Below are positions 32,432 through 49,788 of a stretch of 64,000 bases of DNA, one piece after another. The translations under genes and the position numbers were made by a program. The DNA is from Minisyncoccota bacterium (lineage in GTDB: Bacteria > Patescibacteriota > Minisyncoccia > Phycocordibacterales > DSPV01): contig JBAZSH010000003.1 of NCBI GenBank assembly GCA_041662545.1, positions 1,250 to 65,249 on the forward strand, in the 5' to 3' direction. Position 1 is the first letter of the stretch. Each line of letters begins with the position of its first letter. The notes beneath the pieces were generated by a model. That model did no database searches. It was not told where the DNA came from and saw only the letters and a list, made by a program, of their open reading frames with translations.

Positions 32432-33097
32432 ATGTTTAGAAAAATTATTTCAAAAATTTCCAGCAGGTTGGTTCAACACCCCTCTCTAAGGGATGAAATT
32501 TTGGACAGAACAATGCGGCTGATTTCCCGCTTTGGCTTGGAAGGCGGCGATTATCTTGAATTTGGAGTGGATCAAGGCAAATCTTTTGCGTCAGCTTACA
32601 GTATCGCCCAAAGACACAATCTGACGGCTATGCGTTTCTATGCCTTCGATTCTTTCAAAGGTCTACCACCAATCGAGGGTGTTGATCAGGAGGTGGGGCA
32701 GTTCAAAGAAGGTGAATATTCCTGCAGTGAGCCACAATTTCTTGGAAATATAAAAAATAAAGGAGTGGACTTAAGTAAAGTTATTACCGTACCCGGTTGG
32801 TATCACGAATCTTTAAATAAAGCGACCAAGAAAAAACTGAAAATCAAATCGGCGGCGGTGATTTGGATTGATTGCGACCTTTATGAGTCAACTGTTCCGG
32901 TTTTGGATTTTATTACTGATTATGTAGTTGATGGAACCATTATTATTTTTGACGATTGGTTTTGTTTCCGTGGCAGTCCTAAAAGAGGGGAACAAAGGGC
33001 TTTTCGGGAATGGTTAAGCAGGAATCCTGTTATTACTGCTTCCGAATATTACAAACACGGCTTTTACGGTAACTCTTTTATTTTGCACCGAGATTGA
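32432..33097 (+). CDS. TylF/MycF-family (macrocin-type) sugar O-methyltransferase
   Basis: AVIWIDCDLYESTVPVLDFITDYVVDGTIIIFDDW matches the DxDLYES block of TylF-type O-methyltransferases. Confidence 0.55.
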   Translation: MFRKIISKISSRLVQHPSLRDEILDRTMRLISRFGLEGGDYLEFGVDQGKSFASAYSIAQRHNLTAMRFYAFDSFKGLPPIEGVDQEVGQFKEGEYSCSEPQFLGNIKNKGVDLSKVITVPGWYHESLNKATKKKLKIKSAAVIWIDCDLYESTVPVLDFITDYVVDGTIIIFDDWFCFRGSPKRGEQRAFREWLSRNPVITASEYYKHGFYGNSFILHRD

Positions 33098-33098
33098 T

Positions 33099-35277: not shown

Positions 35278-36492
35278 ATGATTGGACTCATGTTATTCTC
35301 AAATTGCTTTTTAAAATCAAAAATTGTGAAGAATAATAAAATTAGGAAAATTTGTGTTTTTTCCGGTAAACGGGGCGGTTTTGGCGCCTATATCCCCTTA
35401 ATGCGACTTATTGAAAAAGACCCGGTGTTTCAGCTCCAAATAATTTTGGGGGACATGCACGGTTCCAACACTTTCGGTGATACAGCAAAAGAAGCCAAAA
35501 GGTTTTTTCCAAAGAGCAAAATTGTCATTATCAAGATGGGTGCCGGCCGTGGCGACTCACCGGTTATTAGAACGGAGAATCTTGGCACTTGCTTACACAA
35601 AGCCGCCGGTTTTTTGAGCAAACTTAATCCTGACATTTTAATGGTTCACGGCGACCGAGGGGAGCATTTAGTTATGGCTTTGGTTGCCCTTAATCTTGGG
35701 ATTCCGGTTTTTCACACTCAAGGCGGCGAAGTGTCCGGTAACATTGATGATGTTCAAAGACATGCCATTACCAAATTGGCCCACCTTCATTTTCCGGAAA
35801 CCGAAACTGCGAAGAAACGAATTGAGGTTTTAGGTGAAGAGTCGTGGCGGATTTGTGTGGCCGGCTCCCTTTATGTTGATAGAATTGTTCGAAGAATGTT
35901 TACCAATCCAGTAGAAGTACGAAAAAAATATGGCTTGAAACCCGAAGAAAAGTATTTTATTATCATTTATCACCCTGATACTTACTTGTCTCAAAAGGAA
36001 AATTATCGGGTAATGAAAAATGTTCTAACAGCAGTGGAGAGTTTTGGTTTGAGGAGCATTGTTATCTACCCCTGTTCTGACCCGGGTTATCAAGGGGTGA
36101 TTGACGCTATAGATGAAGTTAAAGAAAACTCCGATTTTTTAATTTACAAAAATATTGAGAATCTTGATTTTCTAGGATTACTCACCGACGCTGAAGCTTT
36201 AATTGGAAACTCTTCAACAGCTTTGGTGGAGGCGCCTTATTTGAAATTACCGGCTGTCAATGTTGGCAATCGACAGCTTGGTCGAGATCGGGAAGAAAAT
36301 GTTGCAGATGTTGAAACTAGTGTAATAAAAATCAAAAATAGGTTATTATATGTGACAAGCGATAAGCTTTTCAGAGAACAACTTAAAAAATGCGGTTATC
36401 GTTTGGGGAACGGTCGTGCTTCGGAGCAAATTTTAAAAGTTATCAGAGGCGTTTCCTTAGACGAAAAACTCTTGCGAAAAAAGTTAATATAA
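35278..36492 (+). CDS. UDP-N-acetylglucosamine 2-epimerase, NeuC-like (hydrolysing type)
   Basis: MVHGDRGEHLVMALVALNLGIPVFHTQGGEVSGNIDDVQRHAITKLAHLHFPETETAKKRI matches NeuC-type epimerase core. Confidence 0.7.
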   Translation: MIGLMLFSNCFLKSKIVKNNKIRKICVFSGKRGGFGAYIPLMRLIEKDPVFQLQIILGDMHGSNTFGDTAKEAKRFFPKSKIVIIKMGAGRGDSPVIRTENLGTCLHKAAGFLSKLNPDILMVHGDRGEHLVMALVALNLGIPVFHTQGGEVSGNIDDVQRHAITKLAHLHFPETETAKKRIEVLGEESWRICVAGSLYVDRIVRRMFTNPVEVRKKYGLKPEEKYFIIIYHPDTYLSQKENYRVMKNVLTAVESFGLRSIVIYPCSDPGYQGVIDAIDEVKENSDFLIYKNIENLDFLGLLTDAEALIGNSSTALVEAPYLKLPAVNVGNRQLGRDREENVADVETSVIKIKNRLLYVTSDKLFREQLKKCGYRLGNGRASEQILKVIRGVSLDEKLLRKKLI

Positions 36493-36509
36493 TTTAGTAT
36501 ATTTTATTT

Positions 36510-37190
36510 ATGAACCTGAAAGAAAAAGCCGACATCTCTAAGAATATTATTAAACTAGCCACCGAAGCTTACCCGAAAATTTTTGTGGCTTGCTCATTTG
36601 GTAAGGATTCACGAGTCCTTCTTGATTTGGCCATGCAAGTCAGGTCGGATATTACCGTTGCCGCTATTGATACCGGTTATGAATTTGAGGAGACAATTGA
36701 ATTTGGTAATTCTCTTAGCAAAGAATTGGGTTTTAAATTAATTTGGCTTAAACCATCAATCAAGGATGTGAAACGCATTGATAAAGAATATGGCGACAGT
36801 TTTATCAAGAACGACCAATACAAATGTTGCGAAATGAAAATCCCGGCAATTGAGCGATTTGTAACGAAACATCACGCTTGGATTACTGGTTTGCGTCGTG
36901 ACGAGACCGAATATAGGAAAGATACGATGATTGTTGAAACGGGAAAAGTGGCAAAAATTAACCCTCTGGCCTTTTGGAATAACGATGATATTTGGAACTA
37001 TATTCGCGAAAACAAACTTCGCTACCATCCACTTTATGACAAAGGTTATCCTTCTTTGGGTTGCAAGCCCTGTACTACTTCTGGAAAGGTAAGAGATGGT
37101 GGCGGTCGGCAAGGGCAGTTTGAAAGAGCGGGACGATTTGCCGGTACTAAAAATACTGGCGGTGAGTGTGGACTACATCTTAAAATCTAA
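36510..37190 (+). CDS. Phosphoadenosine-phosphosulfate (PAPS/APS) reductase family protein, CysH-like
   Basis: PP-loop CSFGKDS, conserved GCKPCT and C-terminal ECGLH motif characteristic of CysH-type sulfonucleotide reductases. Confidence 0.7.
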   Translation: MNLKEKADISKNIIKLATEAYPKIFVACSFGKDSRVLLDLAMQVRSDITVAAIDTGYEFEETIEFGNSLSKELGFKLIWLKPSIKDVKRIDKEYGDSFIKNDQYKCCEMKIPAIERFVTKHHAWITGLRRDETEYRKDTMIVETGKVAKINPLAFWNNDDIWNYIRENKLRYHPLYDKGYPSLGCKPCTTSGKVRDGGGRQGQFERAGRFAGTKNTGGECGLHLKI

Positions 37191-37192
37191 TT

Positions 37193-38395
37193 ATGAAAAC
37201 GGTGCGGTTAAAAAATAAATTGACGCCCGGGAAGAAGCGAAAAATTCTTATTTTGGGAGGTGACGGCTATTTAGGCTGGCCTACGGCCATGCATTTTTCA
37301 GCTTTGGGTTATGAAGTGGCAATTGCTGATAATCTTTCCAAGCGACTTTGGGAAGCCGAGTATGACGCCCAACCACTTTGGCAAATTCCCTCAATCAGAA
37401 GGCGAGGGCAATTATGGAAGAAAATATCAGGAAAAGATATAAAAATTTACATTGGCGATATTGCCAACAATCATCGTTTTGTTTACGAAATGTTTCGTGA
37501 ATTTCAACCGGATTCAATCATTCATTATGCTGAACAACCGTCAGCGCCTTTTTCTATGCACAGCCGAGAAAAGGCGGTTTTTACGCAGCACAACAATATT
37601 ATCGGCAATCTCAATGTACTTTTTGCTATGCAAAAATATTGTCCCGACGCCCATCTCGTTAAACTTGGTACTATGGGGGAATACGGCACACCGAACATTA
37701 CAATTGAAGAAGGTTGGCTTGAAGTTAAACATGGCGGTAGGAAAGACAGGATGCTTTATCCTAAACGGGCTGGTTCGTTTTATCACTTAACCAAAGTCCA
37801 CGATAGCAACAACATTGAATTTGCCGTTAGGATTTGGAAATTAAGGGCAACGGATCTTAATCAGGGTGTTGTGTATGGTATTGATACACCAGAAACTCTT
37901 CTTGATACGGAGCTTATGACCAGCTTCCATTACGATGAAGTTTTTGGGACGGTTTTGAATCGGTTTATCGCTCAAGCGGTAGTCGGCTTTCCTCTGACTG
38001 TTTATGGTAAAGGGGGACAGAAGCGAGGCTTTTTGAATATTAAAGACACTATTCAGTGTGTTGAATTAGCGATTAAAAATCCAGCCTTACCCGGCGATTT
38101 TAGAGTTTTCAACCAGTTCACCGAGTTGTTTACAGTTAATGATTTGGCGCAAAAAGTTTGCCAGGCAAGCAAGAAGCTTGGTTTGAATGTGAAAATTCAT
38201 GCTATTGATAATCCCCGAATAGAACAGGAGGATCATTTTTATAAAGCAAAAAACTCCGCCCTTTTATCACTAGGTCTTAAACCAAACTTTTTGACGGAAG
38301 CAACACTTATCGTAATGTTGCAGAAGGTCATTGCGATGAAAGATCATATTAACAAAAGTGTCATCAAACCCTCCATAAGATGGAAGATTCGGTAA
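37193..38395 (+). CDS. sqdB: UDP-sulfoquinovose synthase (SQD1/SqdB/Agl3 family)
   Basis: GGDGYLGWPTAMHFS, FQPDSIIHYAEQPSAPFSM, FTQHNNIIGNLNVLFAM, HLVKLGTMGEYGTPNITIEEG, SFYHLTKVHDS, ATDLNQGVVYG: consecutive blocks recognisable as SQD1 signature segments. Confidence 0.7.
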   Translation: MKTVRLKNKLTPGKKRKILILGGDGYLGWPTAMHFSALGYEVAIADNLSKRLWEAEYDAQPLWQIPSIRRRGQLWKKISGKDIKIYIGDIANNHRFVYEMFREFQPDSIIHYAEQPSAPFSMHSREKAVFTQHNNIIGNLNVLFAMQKYCPDAHLVKLGTMGEYGTPNITIEEGWLEVKHGGRKDRMLYPKRAGSFYHLTKVHDSNNIEFAVRIWKLRATDLNQGVVYGIDTPETLLDTELMTSFHYDEVFGTVLNRFIAQAVVGFPLTVYGKGGQKRGFLNIKDTIQCVELAIKNPALPGDFRVFNQFTELFTVNDLAQKVCQASKKLGLNVKIHAIDNPRIEQEDHFYKAKNSALLSLGLKPNFLTEATLIVMLQKVIAMKDHINKSVIKPSIRWKIR

Positions 38396-38402
38396 TAATT
38401 AT

Positions 38403-39116
38403 ATGAACAAGAAAGTTCTCGGTTTTATTCCGGCTCGTGGTGGGTCAAAAAGTATTCCGCGGAAAAATATTTTTCCTTTGGTGGGAAAACCTTTGATTGC
38501 TTACGCAATTGAAGCCCTCAAACACTCCCAGTTTGTCAACAGAATTGTAGTAAGTACTGATGATGAAGAAATTGCCGCCATTGCGAAAAAATTTGGGGCA
38601 GAAGTTCCATTTTTTCGCCCAAAAGAATTAGCTAAAGATACCAGCCGGGTTTTTGCCGCAATTAAATATACAATTAACAGATTAAAAAAAGAAGAGAAAT
38701 ATTATCCTGATTATGTTGTGACAATTCAACCGACCTCGCCCCTGGTTCAAACTAGTCAAATTGATGCCGCTCTCAAGTTGGTCTTTAAAAAGAAAGCCGA
38801 GTCGGTGGTGACAGTAAAAACTTTACCTCACCACTATCACCCTCATAACATCAGGAAAGTTAAAGAAGGAAAAACCAGTTTTTGGATGGAGCGGGAACAT
38901 TACAAATCCATCAACCGCCAACAGCGACCGGTCTTTTATGCTTTCGGTAATTTGTATGTTTCGCGGGTAGATTTAATAGAGCGGGAAGGCCACCTTGAAG
39001 GAAAAAATAATTATCAAATAGTAATTGACCATTTGAGCGCTCTTGATATTGACGATATTGATGATTTTAAAATTGTCGAGGCGTTGATTAAGGCGGGGAT
39101 TGTAAAAACTTCTTGA
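38403..39116 (+). CDS. Acylneuraminate (nonulosonate) cytidylyltransferase, NeuA-like
   Basis: LGFIPARGGSKSIPRKNIFPLVGKPLIAYAIEAL CMP-sugar synthetase N-terminal motif; 237 aa. Confidence 0.7.
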   Translation: MNKKVLGFIPARGGSKSIPRKNIFPLVGKPLIAYAIEALKHSQFVNRIVVSTDDEEIAAIAKKFGAEVPFFRPKELAKDTSRVFAAIKYTINRLKKEEKYYPDYVVTIQPTSPLVQTSQIDAALKLVFKKKAESVVTVKTLPHHYHPHNIRKVKEGKTSFWMEREHYKSINRQQRPVFYAFGNLYVSRVDLIEREGHLEGKNNYQIVIDHLSALDIDDIDDFKIVEALIKAGIVKTS

Positions 39117-40078
39117 TTTTAATGAAACTTTTGTATTACAAATGTCTTAAATTTCAACCAAAATCATTAGCTTTGCTTAAACGAAATTTTGAGATTATCT
39201 CGCTTAATAATCCGGGCAAAGACACCAAAAAACTTCTAGAATCGATCGAGATTTCTTTTGCGCCACTAGGTTTCTTTTTCAACCGGGAGAAAATTGACTC
39301 AATGCCTAAACTTAAAATCATTGCTTCCAATACTACTGGCTACCCGCACATTGATGTTGACTACGCCAAAACCAAAGGGATAAAAGTAATAACTCTTAAA
39401 GGAGAAAATAAATTTTTGGATACTATTACACCGACCGCTGAACTAACCTGGGGTTTGATCATTGCTTTGACTAGACACCTAATTCCAGCCAGTCGTTTCG
39501 TTCTTGGCGGTAAATGGGATCGACGGCCATTTGGCGGTCAAACGATGCTTTCTCGCCTAACACTTGGAGTTGTTGGTTTGGGGCGATTGGGAAAAATGGT
39601 GGCTGAATACGGCAAGGCCTTTAGAATGAAAGTTATTTATTACGATCCCTTTGTCAAAAGTGCTGACCCGGAGTTATTGAAAATGTCTAATCTTAAGTCG
39701 TTGGCGTCCAAAGCGGATATTATTACAGTTCATGTGCCGGCAGAAAAAGAAAACACCGGACTGGTCGGTAAATATGTTTTTGATAAAATGAAAAAGGGTT
39801 CATATTTCGTAAATACTTCACGAGCTGAACTCGTTGATCATCGAGCATTACTCCAAGCTCTTCGGTCCGGTCATTTAGCCGGTGCCGCCTTAGATGTTTT
39901 CACTGGTGAATTTGAAAGAGATATCAATCAAAAACTCAAAAAACATCCGTTATTAGATTACGCCAAGAGGCACAGCAATCTTCTCATTACCCCCCACATA
40001 GGTGGTTCTACACAAGACGCTTGGTTGGAGACAGAGCTTTTTACCATTAAGCGGATTATGGAATCTTTTAAAAAATAA
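39113..40078 (+). CDS. D-isomer-specific 2-hydroxyacid dehydrogenase family, NAD-binding
   Basis: GVVGLGRLGKMVAEYG Rossmann motif, catalytic-domain RxE/H pattern; paralog of 48844..49788. Confidence 0.65.
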   Translation: MILMKLLYYKCLKFQPKSLALLKRNFEIISLNNPGKDTKKLLESIEISFAPLGFFFNREKIDSMPKLKIIASNTTGYPHIDVDYAKTKGIKVITLKGENKFLDTITPTAELTWGLIIALTRHLIPASRFVLGGKWDRRPFGGQTMLSRLTLGVVGLGRLGKMVAEYGKAFRMKVIYYDPFVKSADPELLKMSNLKSLASKADIITVHVPAEKENTGLVGKYVFDKMKKGSYFVNTSRAELVDHRALLQALRSGHLAGAALDVFTGEFERDINQKLKKHPLLDYAKRHSNLLITPHIGGSTQDAWLETELFTIKRIMESFKK

Positions 40079-40079
40079 A

Positions 40080-41162
40080 ATGGCCAAGGATATTATTTTA
40101 GGAAAAGTCGGCAATAAAAAAATTATTATTGGGCCGGGGCGTGAACCGTTATTAATTGCTGAAGCTGGTGTGCTTACTTGGGGAGAAGTAAAGCGCGGTT
40201 ATATTTTTGTTGACGAGGCAAAAAAGGCGGGTCTCAAGCTTATTAAGTTCCAAGCTTTCAATGCCGACCATGTGGTTTCAAAGAGCGATTCGTTTTGGCA
40301 TAATCGTTTGAAGCAGAGGGAACTTAGTAAGGAAAATTTTTTTAAAATTAAGAACTATGCCGAATCGAAAGGTCTTCTAGCTTTTGCCACCACGCACAAT
40401 GAATATGATTTGGTGAATTTTGCTAAGGATGGAATGGCAGTGCTCAAGATTGGTTCGGGGGACAGCAATAATTTTAGGATGATTGATTTGGCCCTTGAAA
40501 CTGGAAAGCCGGTTATTGTGTCGCTGGGTTTAATGGATGAGAAAGAAACCGAAATTGTTTTGAAAAAGTACAGGAAGCATGCGGATAAAATAGTTTTTAT
40601 GTATTGCGTTACGCTTTATCCGACGCCACCGGAAGCGGTTGATTTGTCAATCTTGGGAAGATGGAGAAAAAAGTATCCAGAATATAATTTTGGTTATTCC
40701 GACCATGTTTTGGGAAAAGAAGTTGCAGTTGCCGCCGTGATGAATGGCGCTTCCATTATTGAAAAACATCTTTGTTTGCCGGCTGATAGGGTTAAGCCAA
40801 AACACAAGAGTTATGATATTATTGTCGCCCTTATCCCAGATGAGATGAAAAAGTTAAACGAGGACATCAAGAATGTCAACACAACTGGCGGGCAGTCTTT
40901 TGTTAGAGTTCATCGAGTTCCATCAAAACTCGTTAAGAAAAATATTTTATGGGCACGCAAATCAATCACGGCTTTTTCGGCCATTAAGAAAGGTACCAAG
41001 ATTAAAGCTAAACAACTGGTTTCGTGTCGGCCATTTGACTCTCGAAAAGGTCATATTTCTATTGAATTTTTTGACGATTTAGTTGGCACTACAGCCGTTC
41101 ATGATATAGTTGCTGGGTCTTTCATTACCAAAGATGACATTTTTGGTTTTTCAAAAAAATAA
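40080..41162 (+). CDS. Nonulosonic (sialic-acid-like) acid synthase, NeuB family with C-terminal SAF domain
   Basis: LLIAEAGVLTWGEV...AKKAGLKLIKFQAF TIM-barrel N-terminus resembling NeuB IIAEIG...A(G)ADA(V)KFQ; start trimmed to ATG 40080 after upstream stop. Confidence 0.6.
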   Translation: MAKDIILGKVGNKKIIIGPGREPLLIAEAGVLTWGEVKRGYIFVDEAKKAGLKLIKFQAFNADHVVSKSDSFWHNRLKQRELSKENFFKIKNYAESKGLLAFATTHNEYDLVNFAKDGMAVLKIGSGDSNNFRMIDLALETGKPVIVSLGLMDEKETEIVLKKYRKHADKIVFMYCVTLYPTPPEAVDLSILGRWRKKYPEYNFGYSDHVLGKEVAVAAVMNGASIIEKHLCLPADRVKPKHKSYDIIVALIPDEMKKLNEDIKNVNTTGGQSFVRVHRVPSKLVKKNILWARKSITAFSAIKKGTKIKAKQLVSCRPFDSRKGHISIEFFDDLVGTTAVHDIVAGSFITKDDIFGFSKK

Positions 41163-41165
41163 ATC

Positions 41166-42479
41166 ATGAAGACGATTTTTATTACCAGCTTTCATATCTT
41201 GATATCGCGCAACATTCTGGCGACGGGTATTTTGCCTTTGCTTGCTAATGGGGGTAGGCGAGTAGTTATTCTTTGCCCAAAAAAGAAGGAGGAATTTTTT
41301 CGGAAAGAGTTTGAAAAAGATGGAGTAATAGTTGAACCAATAGCGGCAAAATTAAATTGGCGGGATTTTATCTGCCGTTTTTTGTCATTGGCGTCTTTGC
41401 GGACAAAAACTCTCTGGCTTAAACGGCGGACAGAAATGAAGGGTGTTGGCGCAGTTTTCTCAGAAATTATGCCAGTTTCTTTGATGGGTTGGCTGACACG
41501 CCGATTAAGTCCGATTCTTACACCTAAGAATCGTTTTCAATCGCTTCTGGAAAAATATAAGCCGGAACTGATTTTTGCCACCGATGTTCAAAATGAATTT
41601 GATGTATCTTTGATGGAGGCCGCCAGAAAGCGAAGCATAAAAATTGTTGGTATGGCTCGGTCTTGGGATAATTTAACAGCGAAAGGTTTGTTGCGAATTA
41701 TTCCTGATGTCTTGTTGGTTAACAACGAAATTGTGAAGAGGGAAGCGATGGAGCTTCACGGTGTTCCAGCTGAAAAAATTCAGGTTGTCGGTTTGCCACA
41801 CTATGATAATTATTTTCAGACGCCAAAACTTTCTCGTTCGGAATTAACCGAAAAACTTGGCTTGAGCGCCGAGAAAAAATTTGTTTTATTCGCGCCGGTT
41901 GGCGATCGCTATCTTGCTAATAATTTCGTTGATAAAAATGTTTTAACTTTACTTGATAAAATTTTACCGGCCGATTGGGAAATTTTGGTTCGTTTGCCGC
42001 CGGCCGATTCGGTGAAAGATTTTGAGTCGGGAAATTTATCAGGGCGGGTAAAAGTCTATCGACCTGGTAGACATCTTGGTAATATTAAAAATACAGAACT
42101 TTCTGTTGTCGACGATGAGATTTTAATCGCCAGCATCAAATACACCGATTTACTTGTCGTTGGGCCATCTACGATGGTTATTGATGCGGCAATTTTTGAT
42201 AAGCCGGTGATTTTGATTGGTTTTGACGGGAGGGAAAATCGGCCGTATCTTGAAAGTATCCGTCGCTATTATGATTACAATCATTTCCAGCCGATTATTG
42301 AAAGTGGCGGCGCCCCGCTAGCCCGAAGCGAGGAGGAGTTTAGAAAATTTGTTGGGGCGTATCTTGCTAATCCAGCCATTGATCGAGCGGGGCGCCGCAA
42401 GATTGTTGAGTCAGAATGTCAGTTTACCGATGGTCAATCTAGCCAACGAGTAGTTAAAGAATTGGAAAAATTTCTATGA
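41166..42479 (+). CDS. TagF/CDP-glycerol glycerophosphotransferase-like GT-B protein (paralog 3 of 4)
   Basis: ELIFATDVQNEFDVSLMEAARKRSIKIVGMARSWDNLT, KKFVLFAPVGD, GPSTMVIDAAIFDKPVILIGF. Confidence 0.4.
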   Translation: MKTIFITSFHILISRNILATGILPLLANGGRRVVILCPKKKEEFFRKEFEKDGVIVEPIAAKLNWRDFICRFLSLASLRTKTLWLKRRTEMKGVGAVFSEIMPVSLMGWLTRRLSPILTPKNRFQSLLEKYKPELIFATDVQNEFDVSLMEAARKRSIKIVGMARSWDNLTAKGLLRIIPDVLLVNNEIVKREAMELHGVPAEKIQVVGLPHYDNYFQTPKLSRSELTEKLGLSAEKKFVLFAPVGDRYLANNFVDKNVLTLLDKILPADWEILVRLPPADSVKDFESGNLSGRVKVYRPGRHLGNIKNTELSVVDDEILIASIKYTDLLVVGPSTMVIDAAIFDKPVILIGFDGRENRPYLESIRRYYDYNHFQPIIESGGAPLARSEEEFRKFVGAYLANPAIDRAGRRKIVESECQFTDGQSSQRVVKELEKFL

Positions 42480-43846: not shown

Positions 43847-44859
43847 CCAAAAGAATTTTTATTACCGGCATCGCTGGTCAAGATGGATCTTATTTATCGG
43901 AATTTTTGGCCAAAAAGAAATGCCAAATTTTTGGTTTGACTAATCAAAAATATTCCGATAACGCGGTTTCAATGGAGGCGATAAAAAAGCTTGGTGACCA
44001 GGTTGTTTTAATTGATGGTGATATTGTTGATACTGGTTTACTAACGAAAATTTTTAAGGATATAAAACCGCACGAAATTTATAATTTGGCAGCAATTTCC
44101 AGTGTGGGTGAGTCCTTCAAGATTCCCGAAAAAGTGATGGAGATTAATTTTTACGCTTTTAAAAGATTGGTTGATGAGGCAATAGCTGTTGTGCCGAAGG
44201 TTAGAATTTATCAAGCGTCGTCGAGTGAAATGTTTGGTAAAGTCCCAGCGCCGCAGAATGAAAAAACAGATTTTAGGCCAGTTAGTCCTTACGGTGAATC
44301 AAAACTTCGTGCTCACAGGGAAGTTGTCTTGGAATATCGTAATAAAAAAGGTATTCATATTTGTTCTGGAATTATGTTTAATCACGAATCGCCACGGCGA
44401 GGTGAAAACTTTGTTACTCAAAAAATTGTTACCGATTTATCTAAAGTAAAACTTGGTTTGCTTGACCATATTGAATTGGGAAATTTGGATGTGGAAAGGG
44501 ATTGGGGTTTTGCCGGTGATTATGTAAAAGCAATGTATTTGATTTTAAACCACAGTAAACCCGATGATTATGTGATTGCTACTGGCAAAAGTCATACCGT
44601 ACGGGATTTCGTGAAGGAAGCCGCGAAAAATCTTGGTTTGAAAATAAAATGGCGCGGGCAGGGCGAGCGGGAGGAAGCAGTTGATAACAATGGAAAAATT
44701 TTGGTAAAAGTTAATCCGATTTTTTATCGTCCAAAAGAACTCGGCTCAACCTTTGGCGACAGCGCCAAAGCGCGGAAAATTTTGGGCTGGAAACCCGAAG
44801 TAAATTTTGTGGGATTGGTAAAAATGATGACGGCGGCAGCTCTAAAGCGCCATGTTTGA
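43843..44859 (+). CDS. gmd: GDP-mannose 4,6-dehydratase (second copy)
   Basis: [40 protein letters not shown]; paralog of 19032..20036. Confidence 0.8.
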   Translation: MTKRIFITGIAGQDGSYLSEFLAKKKCQIFGLTNQKYSDNAVSMEAIKKLGDQVVLIDGDIVDTGLLTKIFKDIKPHEIYNLAAISSVGESFKIPEKVMEINFYAFKRLVDEAIAVVPKVRIYQASSSEMFGKVPAPQNEKTDFRPVSPYGESKLRAHREVVLEYRNKKGIHICSGIMFNHESPRRGENFVTQKIVTDLSKVKLGLLDHIELGNLDVERDWGFAGDYVKAMYLILNHSKPDDYVIATGKSHTVRDFVKEAAKNLGLKIKWRGQGEREEAVDNNGKILVKVNPIFYRPKELGSTFGDSAKARKILGWKPEVNFVGLVKMMTAAALKRHV

Positions 44860-45835
44860 TTACTCAAAAACAAAAAAAGAAGAAATTAGTTGTAACCTTT
44901 GCGGTAGGAATGATTTTTCTGTTATCGCCAGAAAATCAAAAAATAATTTACCGGTGGTGACGGTAATGTGCCGAAAGTGTTCTTTAATCTATATTAATCC
45001 GCGAATGGTCAGTGAAGAATATGACAATTATTACAAATATTTTTACCGAGTAGACAGAAATACAATTAAAGGCACGACAGCTGATACTGAATTGGAAAAG
45101 AATTTTGAAAATGCCAGAAAATTTGGTCTAGCGCTTGGTCGGCGGTATCAAGAGTTTTTTAAACCCGGTTTGACGATTGACGTTGGTTCTTCCACCGGCG
45201 GCGTGCTCTATGGTTTGCGAGAGGCGATGCCGACTTTAAAAATCTTGGGTATTGAGCCGTCGGTAGCGGAATCAGAATTGGCAAGGAATCATGGAGTGCC
45301 AACCAAAACCATTTTATTTGAAAATTTTCGTGATAACTTACCCGAAGCGCCGGCCAACATTTTTTGCGTTCAGAGTTTGAATCATCTTTTGGATCCCAAG
45401 GGTTTTATGACTTGGGCTTACCAAACTTTGATTGACGGCGGTTCGCTGTTTTTGGCGGTGAAAAATTTTCGGTATCAAGCGCGCCGCGCCGGTTCAATAT
45501 CGGCTGGAGTTCAGATTGACCACCCTTATATGTTTACACCCGAAACCCTACGAGCAATGGTTGAGTCCGTTGGTTTTAGAATAGCAGTTTTTGAAGTTGA
45601 TGAAGGTAAAAGTCAGAATGAATTGTTAGAACAAAGAGCCGAGGGTTTGCCAAGACATCATATTCGCGTGGTGGCGGTGAAAGACAATAATTCAAATAAA
45701 GTCCAAATAGTTTTGCCCAATTTTTGGGCTCGGTTTAAACTTCGGTTGGCGCTTAGTTGGCCGATTTTGAAGTTGGTTTATCTAGCCAAGTATTCCCATT
45801 GGGGGGCTTGGCAAAAATCAAAGATTGTAGTATAG
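44852..45835 (+). CDS. SAM-dependent methyltransferase with N-terminal zinc-ribbon
   Basis: CNLCGRN...CRKCS Cys4 ribbon followed by TIDVGSSTGGVLYGL motif I. Confidence 0.5.
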   Translation: MFDYSKTKKEEISCNLCGRNDFSVIARKSKNNLPVVTVMCRKCSLIYINPRMVSEEYDNYYKYFYRVDRNTIKGTTADTELEKNFENARKFGLALGRRYQEFFKPGLTIDVGSSTGGVLYGLREAMPTLKILGIEPSVAESELARNHGVPTKTILFENFRDNLPEAPANIFCVQSLNHLLDPKGFMTWAYQTLIDGGSLFLAVKNFRYQARRAGSISAGVQIDHPYMFTPETLRAMVESVGFRIAVFEVDEGKSQNELLEQRAEGLPRHHIRVVAVKDNNSNKVQIVLPNFWARFKLRLALSWPILKLVYLAKYSHWGAWQKSKIVV

Positions 45836-45843
45836 TGTTGGCA

Positions 45844-46962
45844 ATGACAAAAAGACGGCCCAAAACAATAATAATTCCGGGTACAGACAAAATTCTCGGT
45901 GGCGAGGAAGTTTTTTTTGTGGCGGAAATTGGCAAGGGCTTCATTCAGACAGAAGTCGATCGACCGGCGAAAGAATATCTCGCCAATGCTAAACGGTTGA
46001 TTGATGAGGCGATTATCGCCGGCGCCGACGCGGTAAAGTTCCAAACCCACGAGGTTGATGATGAGCAGGCCAACATCCCAATTGTTTCGCCTCATTTTAA
46101 AGGTGCCGAGCGCTACGCTTGGGTGAAAAGAAACACTGAAGCGACGCCGCTTTCTTTTTGGCGGGCATTAAAAAATTACGCTGACAAAAAAGGTATTATT
46201 TTTTTCTCAACGGCGATGAGTCGATTGGCGGCAGAAAAACTGACTAAGGTCGGTGTGCCACTTTGGAAAGTTGGTTCTGGTGATGTGGAAGATTTCTCAA
46301 TGCTTGATTGTATGATTAAAACTGGTTTGCCGGTTATTATTTCCACCGGTATGGTGAGTTTTGCCGAGTTGGATGAAATCGTCGCTCATTTTAGAAAGCA
46401 TCAAACGCCACTTGCCATTTTGTATTGTGTTAGCGAGTATCCTTGTCCGCCGGAAAAATTTAATTTGGCTACTATTGAAAAAATAAAAGAAAAATATCCG
46501 GAAGTTGTTGTGGGCTTTTCTGACCACTCGGTGGGAAATTTAGAGCCAGTTTTGGCCGCTGTCAAATTGGGCGCTCGCATTGTGGAAAAACATTTTTCGC
46601 TCTCGCGGAATTTGTGGGGTTCGGACCATAAGGTTTCTATGACCCCACTGGAGTTTGCTGAAATGGTGCGCGCGGTGCGTGCCGGCGAATACAAAGAAGT
46701 TGCTCACCAAAAATTCTATGGTAGCAAAAATCGCGAGTTGGACGGTGCCAAAAATCGCTTTCGCCCCTACTTCAAGAAATCATTGGTGGCGGCGCGAGTT
46801 ATCAATAAAGGCGAAAAAATTTCCACTGAGATGATTCAGGCTTTGCGTCCAGCGAAACATCTTAAGGGTTTGCCATCGCGTGATTTTCATAAAGTGGTTG
46901 GTCGTGAGATGATTCGCCAAATTAAAAAAGGTCAGTCGTTAACCAAGCAAAATGTCCGATAA
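45844..46962 (+). CDS. Nonulosonic acid synthase, NeuB family with SAF domain (second copy)
   Basis: VFFVAEIGKGF...AIIAGADAVKFQTHE NeuB-type TIM-barrel N-terminus; start trimmed to ATG 45844. Confidence 0.65.
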   Translation: MTKRRPKTIIIPGTDKILGGEEVFFVAEIGKGFIQTEVDRPAKEYLANAKRLIDEAIIAGADAVKFQTHEVDDEQANIPIVSPHFKGAERYAWVKRNTEATPLSFWRALKNYADKKGIIFFSTAMSRLAAEKLTKVGVPLWKVGSGDVEDFSMLDCMIKTGLPVIISTGMVSFAELDEIVAHFRKHQTPLAILYCVSEYPCPPEKFNLATIEKIKEKYPEVVVGFSDHSVGNLEPVLAAVKLGARIVEKHFSLSRNLWGSDHKVSMTPLEFAEMVRAVRAGEYKEVAHQKFYGSKNRELDGAKNRFRPYFKKSLVAARVINKGEKISTEMIQALRPAKHLKGLPSRDFHKVVGREMIRQIKKGQSLTKQNVR

Positions 46963-48127
46963 ACCCAAACAAAAAAGAAAAGTTTGTTTCGTCATCACGA
47001 GTTTTATTCATTACTCGCGTGGTCTTTTCATTTTGGAAGAATTGAAAAATTGTTCGGATGTGGAGCTTCATATTGTCATCAGCGGTACCGCTTTGCTTGC
47101 CAAGTATTCTTCAAAGTTTTCCTATGTGAAAGATATTTTGGAGCGCGAAGGTTACAAAAATTTTCATGAGCTTTATTTCAATTTGGAAGGCGATAGCCAC
47201 ATCACTAAAGCAAAAACTACTGGTGTTGGTATTATAGAATTTTCCACTTTTTTCAATCATCTTAAACCGGATGTGGTAGTTTTGCGTGGCGATCGATTTG
47301 AAGTGTTGTCCGCTGCTGTGGCAGCCGCTTATTTACAAATTCCCATTGCTCATATTGAGGGGGGGGATGTTACCGGTTCCATTGATGAAAGCGTTCGCCA
47401 CGCCATTACTAAGCTCTCGCATTTACACTTTGCCACCAATGAAGACGCCAAAAAGAGAATTTTGCGAATGGGCGAAAATCCCAAATATGTTTTCAATTTT
47501 GGCAGTCCGGAAATTGAAGTGGTTCATCGGATAATCAACGGCAAACATCATATTGATTTTAGTCAGACCGGTTCTGGTGCGCCATTTGATATTAAGCAAG
47601 ATTTTTTGATGGTGATGTATCAGCCGTTAACCACCGAGACCGAGCGCTTGGCCGAATACACTAAGACCATTTTGTCGGCAGTTCACGAGACAGCGATTCC
47701 AACGCTTTGGTTCTGGCCTAATTTTGACACTGGGGCTGAAGAAATTTCTCGCACCTTGCGGGAGTTTCGTGATCAAACCAAAGACCACAAGATTCGTTTT
47801 ATGCGCTATTTACCACCGCGCGATTTTATCTGGCTTTTGAAACATACTCGGGCGCTTATTGGTAATTCTTCCTCTGGCATTAAAGAGTCATCCTATCTTG
47901 GTGTGCCGGTGGTTAATATTGGCGAGCGGCAGGGCGGGCGTTTACGGGCTAAAAATGTTTTGGATGTGTCGCACAAAAAAGAATATATTAAAAAAGCGAT
48001 TGAAAAACAAATCAGTAAAAATCGTTATCAGCCGTCCAAAATTTATTTCGCTAAGGATACGGCTCGCAAAATTGCCAAAACCTTGGCCACCACCAATCTT
48101 TATGTCCAAAAAAAATTCCACAACTAA
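46952..48127 (+). CDS. UDP-N-acetylglucosamine 2-epimerase, NeuC-like (hydrolysing type), second copy
   Basis: VVLRGDRFEVLSAAVAAAYLQIPIAHIEGGDVTGSIDESVRHAITKLSHLHFATNEDAKKRI, near-identical to NeuC consensus block. Confidence 0.75.
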   Translation: MSDKPKQKRKVCFVITSFIHYSRGLFILEELKNCSDVELHIVISGTALLAKYSSKFSYVKDILEREGYKNFHELYFNLEGDSHITKAKTTGVGIIEFSTFFNHLKPDVVVLRGDRFEVLSAAVAAAYLQIPIAHIEGGDVTGSIDESVRHAITKLSHLHFATNEDAKKRILRMGENPKYVFNFGSPEIEVVHRIINGKHHIDFSQTGSGAPFDIKQDFLMVMYQPLTTETERLAEYTKTILSAVHETAIPTLWFWPNFDTGAEEISRTLREFRDQTKDHKIRFMRYLPPRDFIWLLKHTRALIGNSSSGIKESSYLGVPVVNIGERQGGRLRAKNVLDVSHKKEYIKKAIEKQISKNRYQPSKIYFAKDTARKIAKTLATTNLYVQKKFHN

Positions 48128-48839
48128 ACCGAAAATTCTGGCGGTGATTACTGCCCGAGGTGGTTCTAAAGGTATACCGGGGAAAAACATTAAACCCTTG
48201 GGTGGCAAACCGTTGATTGCTTATTCCATTGATGCGGCAAAAAAGAGTAAGTTGATCACTCACCTTATTGTTTCTACCGATGATAAAAAAATCGCGCGGA
48301 TTGCTATAAAATATGGCGCCGAAGTACCGTTTTTGCGTCCGAAAAAATTAGCCCAAGATAAAACACCCCATGTGCCAGTGATGTGTCACGCCATAGAATT
48401 TGTGGAGAAAAAACTCGGCATTATTTTTGATTACGCCGTAATTCTACAGCCGACCTCTCCGTTTCGTTTGCCGGAAGATATTGATAACACCTTGGAGAAA
48501 CTTATTAAAAATAGCGCTGATAGTGCGGTGTCGTTGGTTGATGTTGATAATTATCATCCGGTGAAAGCTAAAAAATTAGCGGGTGATAAAGTGTTGCCAT
48601 ATATGACACCTGAACCCGAAGGCACTCGTCGGCAAGATTTTCCGCCGGCTTATCGTCGGAGTGGGGCAATTTACGCTATGCGTCGGGATTTATTGATAAA
48701 AGACAACCGACTTTATGGTGATTATATTGTTGGTCACATTGTGCCAGCCGAGCGCTCGGTGGATATTGATACGCCGTTTGAATGGTTTCGGGCCGAGTGG
48801 ATGTTGGAGGATTTAAAACGCAAAGGATATGAATTTTAA
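48102..48839 (+). CDS. Acylneuraminate (nonulosonate) cytidylyltransferase, NeuA-like (second copy); start uncertain
   Basis: KPKILAVITARGGSKGIPGKNIKPLGGKPLIAYSIDAA; first in-frame ATG (48102) lies 26 nt inside the neuC-like gene in another frame; the long upstream ORF extension is implausible. Confidence 0.6.
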   Translation: MSKKNSTTKPKILAVITARGGSKGIPGKNIKPLGGKPLIAYSIDAAKKSKLITHLIVSTDDKKIARIAIKYGAEVPFLRPKKLAQDKTPHVPVMCHAIEFVEKKLGIIFDYAVILQPTSPFRLPEDIDNTLEKLIKNSADSAVSLVDVDNYHPVKAKKLAGDKVLPYMTPEPEGTRRQDFPPAYRRSGAIYAMRRDLLIKDNRLYGDYIVGHIVPAERSVDIDTPFEWFRAEWMLEDLKRKGYEF

Positions 48840-48843
48840 TTAT

Positions 48844-49788
48844 ATGAAAATTTTAAATACTATCGGCGAAAATTTTGCGTTGGAAGCTAAAAAAATACTG
48901 GTTGGCTTGGGCAAAGTTGATTATAAAATTCCAACCCAGAAAGAGCTGGCGGAAATAATTGGTGATTATGACGCGGTAATCGTTGGTCTCGGTTTAAATT
49001 TCCATAAAGAAATTTTGTCACGAGCGAAAAAACTAAAAGTAATTGCTACGGCGACTACGGGTCTTGACCACATTGATGTCGCTTGGGCGAAAAAGCGGGG
49101 GATTAAGGTTTTAAGTTTACGGGGCGAGGAAAAGTTTTTAAACACCATTACTGGCACGGCCGAATTGGCTTTCGGTTTACTCATTGATTTGTCGCGCTTC
49201 ACACCTTGGGCTTTTGAAGATGTGAAAAATTATCGTTGGCGGCGCGAGGATTGGAAAGGCGCGAGTTTATACGGTAAAACTTTGGGTATTATTGGTTTGG
49301 GGCGATTAGGAAAAATGACGGCGCGTTTTGGCCAAGCGTTTGGTATGAAAGTTTTGTTTACCGACCCGAATGTTTCGCCAAAAGATTTTCCTCAATACAA
49401 AAAGGTTTCTTTAAAAAAATTGCTCAAAGAAAGTAGTGCGGTTTCCATCCATCTTCATCTAGGCAAAGATACGGAAAATCTTTTGGCTAGAAAAGAATTT
49501 ACCCTAATGAAAAAAAGCGCGATTTTAGTGAACACCTCACGCGGTAAAATCGTCAACGAAAAAGATTTACTGGTTGCTTTGAAAAGTGGTCAATTGGGTG
49601 GTTATGCGACTGATGTTTTGGCTGACGAACTTTCTTTTAAAACTGTTGGTTTCAAAAAACACCCACTGGTTGAATATTCTAAAACCCACCAAAATCTTAT
49701 TATCGCCCCACATATTGGCGGTATGACCACCGACTCCCGCCTCGCCACTGACCTATTCATGGTGGAGAAATTGAATAAATTCTTGTAA
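48844..49788 (+). CDS. D-isomer-specific 2-hydroxyacid dehydrogenase family (second copy)
   Basis: LGIIGLGRLGKMTARFG Rossmann motif; paralog of 39113..40078; alternative ATG at 48829 overlaps the upstream stop. Confidence 0.65.
   Translation: MKILNTIGENFALEAKKILVGLGKVDYKIPTQKELAEIIGDYDAVIVGLGLNFHKEILSRAKKLKVIATATTGLDHIDVAWAKKRGIKVLSLRGEEKFLNTITGTAELAFGLLIDLSRFTPWAFEDVKNYRWRREDWKGASLYGKTLGIIGLGRLGKMTARFGQAFGMKVLFTDPNVSPKDFPQYKKVSLKKLLKESSAVSIHLHLGKDTENLLARKEFTLMKKSAILVNTSRGKIVNEKDLLVALKSGQLGGYATDVLADELSFKTVGFKKHPLVEYSKTHQNLIIAPHIGGMTTDSRLATDLFMVEKLNKFL

What the first reader, a model, noticed from the sequence alone, without database searches (positions are those of the whole stretch)
35278..49788. 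Two separate nonulosonic-acid (sialic-acid-like) biosynthesis modules in one locus
Module 1 is neuC-like (35278), neuA-like (38403), D-2-hydroxyacid dehydrogenase (39113) and neuB-like (40080). Module 2 is neuB-like (45844), neuC-like (46952), neuA-like (48102) and D-2-hydroxyacid dehydrogenase (48844), preceded by a second gmd and a methyltransferase. Each module contains the same four-gene set in a different order. Both include an unusual companion 2-hydroxyacid dehydrogenase not part of canonical Neu5Ac/legionaminic/pseudaminic routes. Duplication with divergence (the two NeuC-like proteins differ substantially) suggests two different nonulosonic acids, or a modified one (for example a reduced or alternative-stereochemistry derivative), are made.
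Basis: partly seen in the sequence, partly recalled or inferred. Interest (0 to 1): 0.65.

Follow-up and report, generated by a model that had tools for sequence, protein, structure and literature searches.

The report
Two sialic-acid-like sugar pathways, one sulfonate-linked
A candidate-phyla-radiation bacterium carries two old, intact gene sets for sialic-acid-like sugars, each with an undescribed dehydrogenase partner, and one is wired to enzymes that make a sulfonated sugar, so a sulfonated sialic-acid-like sugar may exist.

Summary
Window 35278-49788 holds two complete NeuC/NeuB/NeuA sets. Each set has a D-2-hydroxyacid dehydrogenase (HADH), and the gene order differs between the two. The paralogs are only 29-43% identical, so this is neither an assembly artefact nor a recent duplication. 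Both NeuB proteins keep every catalytic residue checked.

1. An APS-reductase-type CysH (36510-37190) and an SQD1-type UDP-sulfoquinovose synthase (37193-38395) lie inside module 1.
2. Both HADHs belong to one clade that is found next to Neu genes in 46 of 52 loci seeded with HADH, and in none of 19 loci carrying generic HADHs. The clade has two subclades, and some members are fused to the cytidylyltransferase.
3. SQD1 is embedded in nonulosonic-acid (NulO) clusters across CPR, Alphaproteobacteria, Burkholderiales, Nitrospirota, Nitrospinaceae and Rokubacteria. This also holds when loci are seeded from SQD1.

Best reading: these are two different CMP-NulO pathways of an uncharacterised class tailored by an HADH. 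Module 1 draws on sulfite and UDP-sulfoquinovose, possibly giving a 9-sulfo NulO. I found no paper describing either link. The products are inferred, not shown.

The parts
33868..35220 (-). TagF/BFO_1060-like glycosyltransferase (GT_c). It is a candidate ulosonic-acid transferase, transcribed divergently from module 1.
   Evidence: Pfam Glyphos_transf and NCBIfam NF046086 score weakly. It is 37% identical to GT_a. Members of the BFO_1060 family in Tannerella are genetically required for Pse/Leg transfer (PMC5420450).
35278..36492 (+). NeuC1, a hydrolysing NDP-sugar 2-epimerase.
   Evidence: TIGR03568 scores 316.5 bits against a cutoff of 235.9. The best solved homolog is the hydrolysing GDP/UDP-diNAcBac 2-epimerase 5xvs.
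36510..37190 (+). CysH, an APS/PAPS reductase that produces sulfite.
   Evidence: NF002537 scores 183.5 bits (cutoff 154) and TIGR00434 scores 165.4 (cutoff 165.1). The sequence has the CC...CxxC and ECGLH motifs of the Fe-S APS-reductase type. CysH is again adjacent to SQD1 in L088 and L090.
37193..38395 (+). SQD1/SqdB-type UDP-sulfoquinovose synthase.
   Evidence: It scores 495 bits against Arabidopsis SQD1 (1qrr) and is 55% identical to it. T145, Y182, H183 and K186 are conserved. NF041015 scores 450 bits, below the 575 cutoff.
38403..39116 (+). NeuA1, a CMP-ulosonic acid synthetase.
   Evidence: Pfam CTP_transf_3. PseF TIGR03584 scores 168.7 bits, below the 205.7 cutoff. The nearest solved structures are NeuA/CMP-Neu5Ac synthetases 9ftb, 6ifd and 1eyr.
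39122..40078 (+). HADH1, a NulO-associated D-2-hydroxyacid dehydrogenase of subclade 1.
   Evidence: Pfam 2-Hacid_dh(_C). It reaches no NCBIfam cutoff. The catalytic Arg/Glu/His residues and the clade motif SNTTGxPHID are present. Homologs 53-60% identical sit in NeuB-NeuC-HADH-NeuA operons, and some are fused to CTP_transf_3.
40080..41162 (+). NeuB1, a NulO synthase with the type-1 signature.
   Evidence: Pfam NeuB plus SAF. TIGR03569 scores 188 bits, below the 399.65 cutoff. All catalytic residues are kept. It has the type-1 signature of a loop deletion at N74, N184T and F288W.
41166..42479 (+). TagF/BFO_1060-like transferase GT_a.
   Evidence: Pfam Glyphos_transf scores 55.6 bits. NF046086 is weak. 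The gene is conserved next to module 2 in CPR loci L040, L042, L043 and L066.
42476..43846 (+). TagF/BFO_1060-like transferase GT_b.
43843..44859 (+). Gmd2, a divergent protein resembling GDP-mannose 4,6-dehydratase.
   Evidence: Pfam GDP_Man_Dehyd scores 363 bits. TIGR01472 scores 341 bits, below the 415 cutoff. It is 43% identical to Gmd1 at 18993-20036. Among related loci it is present only in L043.
44852..45835 (+). SAM methyltransferase, a common accessory gene of both cassette types.
   Evidence: Pfam Methyltransf_23. Homologs occur in 15 HADH-seeded loci.
45844..46962 (+). NeuB2, a NulO synthase with the CPR type-2 signature.
   Evidence: Pfam NeuB plus SAF. TIGR03569 scores 241 bits and PseI scores 212 bits, both below their cutoffs. 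The catalytic residues are kept, and positions 74, 184 and 288 are K, S and Y.
46952..48127 (+). NeuC2, a hydrolysing NDP-sugar 2-epimerase.
   Evidence: TIGR03568 scores 349 bits against a cutoff of 236.
48102..48839 (+). NeuA2, a CMP-ulosonic acid synthetase.
   Evidence: Pfam CTP_transf_3. PseF scores 187 bits, below the 205.7 cutoff. The nearest solved structures are NeuA proteins. The start at 48102 agrees with the gene caller.
48844..49788 (+). HADH2, a NulO-associated D-2-hydroxyacid dehydrogenase of subclade 2.
   Evidence: Its homologs are mostly from CPR bacteria and sit in NeuB-NeuC-NeuA-HADH cassettes.
49806..51977 (+). Wzy_C (O-antigen ligase/polymerase-like) protein with TPR repeats, the likely user of the assembled glycan.
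   Evidence: Pfam Wzy_C plus TPR. The same protein follows HADH2 in six CPR loci.

Best explanation
The locus encodes two separate routes to CMP-activated nonulosonic acids (NulOs). In each route a NeuC-type enzyme releases a free sugar from a nucleotide sugar, NeuB condenses that sugar with PEP, and NeuA activates the product with CTP. In each route a dedicated NAD(P)-dependent oxidoreductase of a previously undescribed 2-hydroxyacid-dehydrogenase clade adds a redox tailoring step at or next to the CMP-activation step.

Module 1 belongs to cassette 'type 1', which is often joined to an SQD1 gene. In this window CysH makes sulfite and SQD1 makes UDP-sulfoquinovose. I infer that NeuC1 and NeuB1 convert this sugar into a 9-deoxy-9-sulfo NulO. 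Module 2 belongs to cassette 'type 2', which is typical of CPR bacteria. It carries a methyltransferase and a Gmd-like enzyme and makes a different, probably O-methylated, NulO. TagF/BFO_1060-like transferases and a Wzy_C-TPR protein then install the sugars on a surface glycan.

Shown here: gene content, intact catalytic residues, and conserved synteny. Inferred: the substrates, the carbon the HADH acts on, and whether the sulfosugar enters the NulO backbone.
For: - Family assignments and thresholds are.
- NeuB catalytic residues are intact in both copies.
- The HADH catalytic Arg/Glu/His triad and a clade-specific motif and insertion are shared by types 1 and 2 and absent from generic HADHs.
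- In HADH-seeded genome loci of at least 8 kb, 41 of 47 with HADH identity of 41% or more carry at least 2 Neu genes, against 5 of 24 below 41% (Fisher p = 5e-8). All 5 exceptions fall inside the NulO-HADH clade on the tree, and the 19 loci outside the clade have none.
- HADH-CTP_transf_3 fusion proteins exist (P0010, P0014, P0079).
- HADH-NeuA-HADH triplets in L018 and L027 mirror the ElaA-ElaB-ElaC gene order (PMC13656337).
- SQD1 lies within 10 kb in 13 of 26 type-1 loci, against 1 of 21 type-2 loci, and that one is the two-module locus L006 (p = 0.001).
- Compact operons are seen: SQD1-NeuB-NeuC-HADH-ABC-NeuA in L003, L085 and L086, and NeuC-HADH-NeuA-SQD1-NeuB in L033.
- The reverse test, seeding loci from SQD1, gives the same result. 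Three of 3 look-ups and 7 metagenome loci with homologs at least 57% identical carry Neu genes beside SQD1.
- CysH is adjacent to SQD1 in three independent loci.
- L006 (Parcubacteria) has the same two-module layout.
Against: - No biochemical data exist for any member.
- NeuC-family enzymes are known only on 2-acetamido sugars, and UDP-sulfoquinovose has a 2-OH.
- SQD1 proteins in NulO clusters do not form one clade separate from SQD1 proteins outside such clusters or from plant SQD1. Nothing therefore marks them as specialised, and UDP-sulfoquinovose could simply be a second glycosyl donor.
- About half of type-1 loci lack SQD1 within 10 kb.
- In L088 a GalE-like SDR sits where the HADH sits elsewhere.
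- Canonical 2HADH chemistry acts on the carbon next to a carboxylate. That does not fit an obvious hydroxyl of a CMP-NulO.
- No sulfate-activation genes (Sat/CysDN/CysC) are in the window.
Confidence: 0.6

Rival explanations
1. CysH and SQD1 make UDP-sulfoquinovose only as an ordinary glycosyl donor. The glycan would then contain a sulfoquinovose residue beside a NulO that carries no sulfonate, as in the Sulfolobus N-glycan. NeuC1 would use UDP-GlcNAc.
For: SQD1 is 55% identical to plant SQD1 with its catalytic residues intact. SQD1 proteins in NulO clusters are interspersed with ones outside such clusters on the tree. NeuC enzymes are known on 2-acetamido sugars. NeuB R314, recalled as the contact for the N-acetyl group, is conserved. 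Half of type-1 loci have no SQD1 nearby. The window has five GT4 genes upstream.
Against: No hexosyltransferase travels with SQD1 across loci. The only recurrent transferases are of the ulosonic-acid type, either TagF-like or KpsC/S-like Capsule_synth. SQD1 is interleaved between Neu genes in compact operons from several phyla.
Confidence: 0.35
2. The HADH does not act on the NulO. It makes a small D-2-hydroxy acid (D-glycerate or D-lactate) that is attached as a substituent, as in glyceroyl- or di-O-methylglyceroyl-NulOs.
For: This is canonical 2HADH chemistry, and the nearest solved homologs are phosphoglycerate dehydrogenases and glyoxylate reductases. The locus has many methyltransferases. 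Glyceroyl-NulOs are known in Tannerella and Campylobacter (PMC5420450; SugarBase preprint).
Against: The conserved four-gene cassettes contain no ligase, acyltransferase, aminotransferase or ATP-grasp enzyme. The Arg/Ser/Thr/Lys phosphate-binding motif that I recall from PGDH appears to be replaced. This is my own reading of the A1 consensus; no PGDH sequence was aligned. Fusion to the cytidylyltransferase points to the NulO or CMP-NulO as the shared ligand.
Confidence: 0.12
3. The HADH reduces the open-chain 2-keto group of the free NulO to a 3-deoxy-aldonic acid, or performs some other side reaction that is not part of glycan assembly.
For: The NulO is the only 2-oxo acid in the pathway, and 2HADH-family 2-ketoaldonate reductases exist (a 2-ketogluconate reductase is among the hits).
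Against: The product could not be CMP-activated at C2, yet the HADH is adjacent to or fused with the cytidylyltransferase. No known glycan contains such an acid, to my knowledge.
Confidence: 0.07
4. The two modules are redundant copies that make the same sugar, or the arrangement is an assembly or binning artefact.
For: The two modules share the same four gene families. Module 2 is 79-89% identical to a contig binned as Saccharibacteria.
Against: The paralogs are 29-43% identical, with distinct NeuB signatures and distinct HADH subclades. The same two-module contig was assembled independently from another run (L001, 44 kb). Parcubacteria locus L006 has the same layout. GC content is uniform across the region. 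There are no long repeats.
Confidence: 0.05

Closest known systems
Bacterial NeuC/NeuB/NeuA sialic-acid pathway and the late LegG/LegI/LegF steps of legionaminic acid synthesis
   Same: Both share the same three enzyme families and logic: release of a free sugar from a nucleotide sugar, condensation with PEP, and CMP activation. The NeuC proteins pass the TIGR03568 cutoff, and the NeuB catalytic residues are conserved.
   Different: NeuB and NeuA score well below the curated NeuB, PseI and PseF cutoffs. The modules contain no dehydratase, aminotransferase or acetyltransferase of the Leg/Pse type. Each module has an extra 2HADH, and module 1 also has CysH and SQD1.
ElaABC (A. baumannii and V. 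vulnificus) and EpaAB (prophage) NulO C8-epimerisation cassettes
   Same: Oxidoreductases are encoded beside, or fused to, the CMP-NulO synthetase and tailor the activated sugar (PMC13656337; PMC12053666). HADH-NeuA fusions and HADH-NeuA-HADH triplets repeat that architecture.
   Different: The oxidoreductase here has a different fold (2HADH rather than Gfo/Idh/MocA, SDR or aldo-keto reductase). The window has only one oxidoreductase per module. The position acted on and the outcome (epimer or keto product) are unknown.
SQD1/SqdB/Agl3 UDP-sulfoquinovose synthases (plant and cyanobacterial sulfolipid; Sulfolobus N-glycan)
   Same: The window protein is 55% identical to Arabidopsis SQD1, and T145, Y182, H183 and K186 are conserved. 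A sulfite source is encoded next to it.
   Different: The genomic context is a NulO operon rather than sulfolipid (sqdX/SQD2) genes. The host is a CPR bacterium. The fate of the product may be conversion by NeuC and NeuB rather than glycosyl transfer.
Tannerella forsythia Pse/Leg transferases (BFO_1060 / Tanf_01245 family, TagB-like)
   Same: The proteins have a TagB/TagF-like GT-B fold and are encoded beside NulO genes (PMC5420450).
   Different: The match to NF046086 is weak (49-61 bits against a cutoff of 200). The window has four paralogs. Their activity is untested.

Membership tests
NeuC/NeuB/NeuA-type nonulosonic acid pathway | A hydrolysing NDP-sugar 2-epimerase (NeuC/LegG family). | tested here: met
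   TIGR03568 scores 316.5 and 349.3 bits against a cutoff of 235.9. The best solved hit is the LegG-type enzyme 5xvs.
NeuC/NeuB/NeuA-type nonulosonic acid pathway | A NeuB TIM-barrel plus SAF synthase with its metal-binding, PEP-binding and catalytic residues. | tested here: met
   Pfam NeuB plus SAF. E25, K53, Q55, T110, K129, S132, S154, Y186, S213, H215, E234, H236, D247 and R314 are conserved in both copies.
NeuC/NeuB/NeuA-type nonulosonic acid pathway | A CMP-ulosonic acid synthetase (CTP_transf_3). | tested here: met
   Pfam scores are 101.8 and 90.8 bits. The nearest solved structures are CMP-Neu5Ac synthetases.
Canonical Neu5Ac, legionaminic or pseudaminic acid synthase equivalogs (TIGR03569, TIGR03586) | A score above the curated equivalog cutoff. 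| tested here: not met
   NeuB1 scores 188 and 130 bits, and NeuB2 scores 241 and 212 bits, against cutoffs of 399.65 and 340.25.
Legionaminic/pseudaminic (5,7-diamino) pathways | A 4,6-dehydratase, an aminotransferase and an N-acetyltransferase (and PseG for Pse) within the module. | tested here: not met
   None of these lies in 35278-49788. The only DegT aminotransferase is at 20033-21196, next to Gmd1. Most related cassettes also lack them.
UDP-sulfoquinovose synthase (SQD1/SqdB/Agl3) | The SQD1 fold with T145, Y182 and K186 plus H183, and high similarity to the characterised enzyme. | tested here: met
   It scores 495 bits and is 55% identical to 1qrr, and the motifs KLGTMGEYG and SFYHLTK are conserved. 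The NF041015 equivalog cutoff is not reached (450 bits against 575).
UDP-sulfoquinovose synthase (SQD1/SqdB/Agl3) | Formation of UDP-sulfoquinovose from UDP-glucose and sulfite. | not testable with these tools
   Only context is available: an adjacent CysH passes its cutoffs and recurs beside SQD1 in L088 and L090.
D-2-hydroxyacid dehydrogenase superfamily | Both Pfam domains, the GxGxxG NAD-binding motif and the Arg-Glu-His catalytic triad. | tested here: met
Characterised 2HADH subfamilies (PGDH, glyoxylate/hydroxypyruvate reductase, D-LDH, PdxB, FDH, VanH) | A score above the curated subfamily cutoff. | tested here: not met
   The best score is PGDH TIGR01327 at 190 and 203 bits against a cutoff of 454. 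All other models are also below their cutoffs. The clade has its own TTGxxHID motif and an insertion.
ElaABC / EpaAB CMP-NulO epimerisation systems | A pair of oxidoreductases (Gfo/Idh/MocA plus SDR, or AKR plus SDR) together with a CTP-transferase. | tested here: not met
   The window has one oxidoreductase per module, of a different fold. The resemblance is in architecture only.

The most novel reading that the evidence does not exclude
Module 1 and its relatives in at least six phyla make a C-sulfonated nonulosonic acid, either 9-deoxy-9-sulfo-Kdn or 9-deoxy-9-sulfo-Neu5Ac. The proposed route is APS to sulfite (CysH), UDP-glucose to UDP-sulfoquinovose (SQD1), then NeuC, NeuB and NeuA. A new NulO-specific clade of 2-hydroxyacid dehydrogenases tailors the sugar. 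To my knowledge this sugar class has never been reported, and it would be displayed on the surface of CPR bacteria.
Probability: 0.35. Interest if true: 0.85.

Novelty: new variant of a known kind. Interest (0 to 1): 0.62.

Why it matters
Nonulosonic acids cap bacterial surface glycans and govern recognition by hosts, phages and immune systems. CPR bacteria live attached to other cells and have tiny genomes, yet this one spends about 17 kb on two such pathways.

A widespread, unstudied dehydrogenase partner of the CMP-activating enzyme would add a new class of tailoring enzyme. A sulfonate-bearing NulO would be a new kind of strongly acidic sugar. It would also be a new sink for sulfoquinovose chemistry outside sulfolipids.

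Both ideas can be tested directly by expressing five or six genes and analysing CMP-sugars by mass spectrometry.

Tried and rejected
- **Literature.** Nine full-text searches combined nonulosonic/neuB/sialic acid synthase with 2-hydroxyacid dehydrogenase, phosphoglycerate dehydrogenase, sulfoquinovose (synthase), Patescibacteria or CPR. None returned a paper describing either association. The large NulO-synthase phylogeny paper does not mention it.
- **An unassigned NulO mass.** The SugarBase preprint reports an unassigned NulO mass of 333.106 in a C. jejuni strain. It does not match a sulfo-Kdn at 332.041.
- **Plasmids.** A tblastn search of plasmids with the Rhizobium HADH found only one weak, unannotated hit.
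- **A specialised SQD1 subfamily.** I looked for a subfamily that might use UDP-GlcNAc. The neighbour-joining tree shows SQD1 proteins from NulO clusters interspersed with others and with plant SQD1, so I dropped the idea.
- **Further universally conserved genes.** Only accessory genes recur in the cassettes: an MsbA-like ABC transporter, methyltransferases, Asn-synthase-like proteins, radical-SAM proteins and DegT.
- **Sulfolactate and uronate-tail ideas for the HADH.** Type-2 cassettes lack SQD1, so these ideas do not generalise.
- **Recent duplication or artefact.** Rejected.
- **Antisense ORF clusters.** Some ORF clusters in high-GC loci lay antisense to the HADH and other genes (for example L009 10001-11170 on the minus strand). 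I judged these to be spurious ORFs and ignored them.

Full report
**Source and setting**

The window comes from a CPR bacterium. The HADH1, HADH2 and SQD1 proteins are 100% identical to NCBI entries named 'MAG... Candidatus Paceibacterota bacterium' on a 67-kb contig. A 44-kb contig assembled independently from another sequencing run has the same gene order (L001).

Housekeeping genes flank a single large glycan locus that runs from about 11.8 to 52 kb. Upstream are MurJ, ScpA, ThyA, SHMT, Tmk and ArgS. Downstream are a ribosome hibernation factor, cyclophilin, tRNAs, enolase, Obg and GatB. GC content is even across the window, 0.37-0.45.

**Observation**

Module 1, in gene order:
- NeuC1, 35278-36492
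- CysH, 36510-37190
- SQD1, 37193-38395
- NeuA1, 38403-39116
- HADH1, 39122-40078
- NeuB1, 40080-41162

Two TagF/BFO_1060-like transferases (41166-43846), a Gmd-like gene (43843-44859) and a methyltransferase (44852-45835) follow.

Module 2, in gene order:
- NeuB2, 45844-46962
- NeuC2, 46952-48127
- NeuA2, 48102-48839
- HADH2, 48844-49788

A Wzy_C-TPR protein (49806-51977) comes next. All 15 genes are co-directional, with gaps of 17 bp or less or short overlaps.

The paralogs are 34% (NeuC), 39% (NeuA), 42.5% (HADH) and 29% (NeuB) identical. DNA-level repeats between the modules are limited to motif-sized stretches at 71-73% identity. The paralogs are not near-identical, and both NeuB proteins keep all fourteen catalytic, metal-binding and PEP-binding residues of N. 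meningitidis NeuB that I checked.

Two genes lie between NeuC1 and NeuA1.

The first passes the curated cutoffs for phosphoadenylyl-sulfate reductase. It has the CC...CxxC and ECGLH motifs of the iron-sulfur APS-reductase type, so it makes sulfite.

The second scores 495 bits against Arabidopsis SQD1 and is 55% identical to it. The catalytic residues T145, Y182, H183 and K186 are intact. It is therefore a UDP-sulfoquinovose-synthase-type enzyme, which consumes sulfite. A sulfosugar nucleotide is almost certainly made inside module 1.

**The dehydrogenase is a conserved partner of Neu genes**

Homologs of HADH1 at 53-60% identity occur in many phyla. Some are fused to a CTP_transf_3 domain.

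I scanned one genome per species with an HADH alignment and then ran tblastn with the window proteins. Among loci of at least 8 kb:
- 41 of 47 loci with HADH identity of 41% or more carry at least two of NeuA, NeuB and NeuC.
- 5 of 24 loci below 41% identity do so (Fisher p = 5e-8).

On a neighbour-joining tree those five fall inside the same clade. The 19 loci outside that clade have no Neu genes.

The clade shares a TTGxxHID motif and a four-residue insertion (FLxxITxTAE) that the generic HADHs lack. It keeps the Arg/Glu/His catalytic triad. No curated 2HADH subfamily cutoff is reached.

The clade has two subclades:
- Type 1 contains HADH1. The usual operon is NeuB-NeuC-HADH-(ABC)-NeuA.
- Type 2 contains HADH2. 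The usual operon is NeuB-NeuC-NeuA-HADH. It is mostly from CPR bacteria. In CPR loci it is accompanied by the same TagF-like pair, the same methyltransferase and the same Wzy_C-TPR protein.

The NeuB proteins follow the same split. Type-1 NeuB proteins have a loop deletion at N74, T184 and W288. CPR type-2 NeuB proteins have K74, S184 and Y288.

Parcubacteria locus L006 has both modules in the same layout. A contig binned as Saccharibacteria (L043) carries module 2 at 79-89% identity. The two modules are therefore two old cassette lineages placed side by side, not a local duplication.

**The sulfonate link recurs**

SQD1 lies within 10 kb of the HADH in 13 of 26 type-1 loci. It does so in only 1 of 21 type-2 loci, and that one is the two-module locus L006 (p = 0.001).

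Compact operons include:
- SQD1-NeuB-NeuC-HADH-ABC-NeuA in Algihabitans albus, Ferrovibrio and a Nitrospinaceae MAG.
- NeuC-HADH-NeuA-SQD1-NeuB in a Burkholderiales genome.

Seeding loci from SQD1 instead gives the same picture:
- All three look-ups of homologs 64-68% identical landed in NulO clusters. One of them (L088) reads NeuC-CysH-SQD1-SDR-NeuA-NeuB.
- Seven metagenome loci with SQD1 at least 57% identical carry Neu genes beside it. One of them (L090) reads CysH-SQD1-NeuA-HADH. More distant SQD1 homologs (55% identical or less) in that scan do not.

No hexosyltransferase travels with SQD1. The recurrent transferases are TagF-like or KpsC/S-like.

**Mechanism**

The core of each module can be read with confidence. 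NeuC releases a free sugar from a nucleotide sugar, NeuB condenses it with PEP, and NeuA makes the CMP-sugar.

For the HADH the best guide is architecture. It sits beside the cytidylyltransferase, is sometimes fused to it, and in L018 and L027 flanks it on both sides. This matches the known C8-epimerisation cassettes ElaA-ElaB-ElaC and EpaA-EpaB, where oxidoreductases of other folds act on the CMP-NulO. I therefore read the HADH as a redox-tailoring enzyme for the NulO or CMP-NulO. The outcome could be a keto product or an epimer, and the position is unknown. This is inference. Canonical 2HADH chemistry at a carbon next to a carboxylate does not map neatly onto a CMP-NulO.

For module 1 I favour sulfite to UDP-sulfoquinovose, then NeuC1/NeuB1, giving a 9-sulfo NulO. 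My probability for that step is about 0.35-0.4.

The main rival, at about 0.35, is that UDP-sulfoquinovose is a separate donor. Several points favour the rival:
- NeuC enzymes are known only on 2-acetamido sugars.
- SQD1 proteins from NulO clusters are not a distinct clade.
- Half of type-1 loci have no SQD1 nearby.

Module 2, with its methyltransferase and Gmd-like enzyme, should give a different, probably methylated, NulO.

**Comparison and novelty**

The three core enzymes meet the family-level tests of the NeuC/NeuB/NeuA pathway. They fall below the curated equivalog cutoffs for Neu5Ac, Leg and Pse synthases and for PseF. The modules lack the dehydratase, aminotransferase and acetyltransferase steps of the Leg and Pse routes.

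Nine full-text searches found no paper linking a 2-hydroxyacid dehydrogenase or SQD1 to NulO synthesis, and none on NulOs in CPR bacteria. That search covers open-access literature only.

I rate this a new variant of a known kind. The pathway type is familiar, while the dehydrogenase partner and the sulfonate coupling are not described. Interest is moderate to high because the prediction is specific, widespread and cheap to test, but nothing about the products has been shown.

Noticed in passing
window 785-858 (-): ARAGORN calls a tRNA-Ile with anticodon TAT. To my knowledge bacteria normally read AUA with a lysidine-modified CAT tRNA, so this is unusual.
   Followed up: no
L043 1-10900 versus window 41166-49788: A contig binned as 'uncultured Candidatus Saccharibacteria' carries GT_a-GT_b-Gmd2-MT-NeuB2-NeuC2-NeuA2-HADH2 at 79-89% amino-acid identity to this Paceibacterota window. 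This is either recent transfer between CPR lineages or a binning error.
   Followed up: partly
window 28085-29473, 33868-35220 (-), 41166-42479, 42476-43846: The locus has four paralogous TagF/BFO_1060-like transferases, 27-37% identical to each other. This suggests several distinct ulosonic-acid linkages or acceptors.
   Followed up: partly
L018 8272-10945; L027 4343-7022: Deltaproteobacterial Leg/Pse-like clusters (HisF/HisH-like amidotransferase, CBS-SDR, sulfotransferase) contain HADH-NeuA-HADH triplets with no NeuB or NeuC found on the held sequence (10.4 kb for L027, about 21 kb for L018). The gene order mirrors ElaA-ElaB-ElaC.
   Followed up: partly
window 49806-51977; L040, L042, L043, L052, L057, L066: A Wzy_C (O-antigen ligase/polymerase-like) protein with C-terminal TPR repeats directly follows HADH2 here and in six CPR loci. 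A second large TPR protein lies at 931-3375. These could be a polymerase or an O-oligosaccharyltransferase in a bacterium without an outer membrane.
   Followed up: no
window 23090-33860: At least six SAM-methyltransferase genes or domains sit in the upstream part of the glycan locus: 23090-24490 (GT2-MT fusion), 27376-28083, 30842-31663, 31673-32371, 32432-33097 (TylF-like) and 33099-33860. SHMT lies at the edge of the locus. In L087 SHMT and FolD are also embedded among glycan methyltransferases.
   Followed up: no
window 13813-14682: The UDP-glucose/GDP-mannose dehydrogenase-family ORF is only 289 aa. Its match begins at position 71 of the N-terminal NAD-domain model, so it may be truncated or mis-started.
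   Followed up: no
L088 389-1984: One protein fuses a NeuB domain to a C-terminal cupin (lyxose-isomerase-like) domain. It lies beside a HAD phosphatase, a CTP_transf_3 protein and a Gfo/Idh/MocA oxidoreductase. This is a third NulO-type module on the same contig as a CysH-SQD1 module.
   Followed up: no
L089 5801-6745 and 10217-11212; L027 7024-7995: Sulfotransferase-family genes sit inside NulO clusters that carry SQD1 or the HADH. O-sulfation may occur alongside, or instead of, C-sulfonation in some lineages.
   Followed up: no
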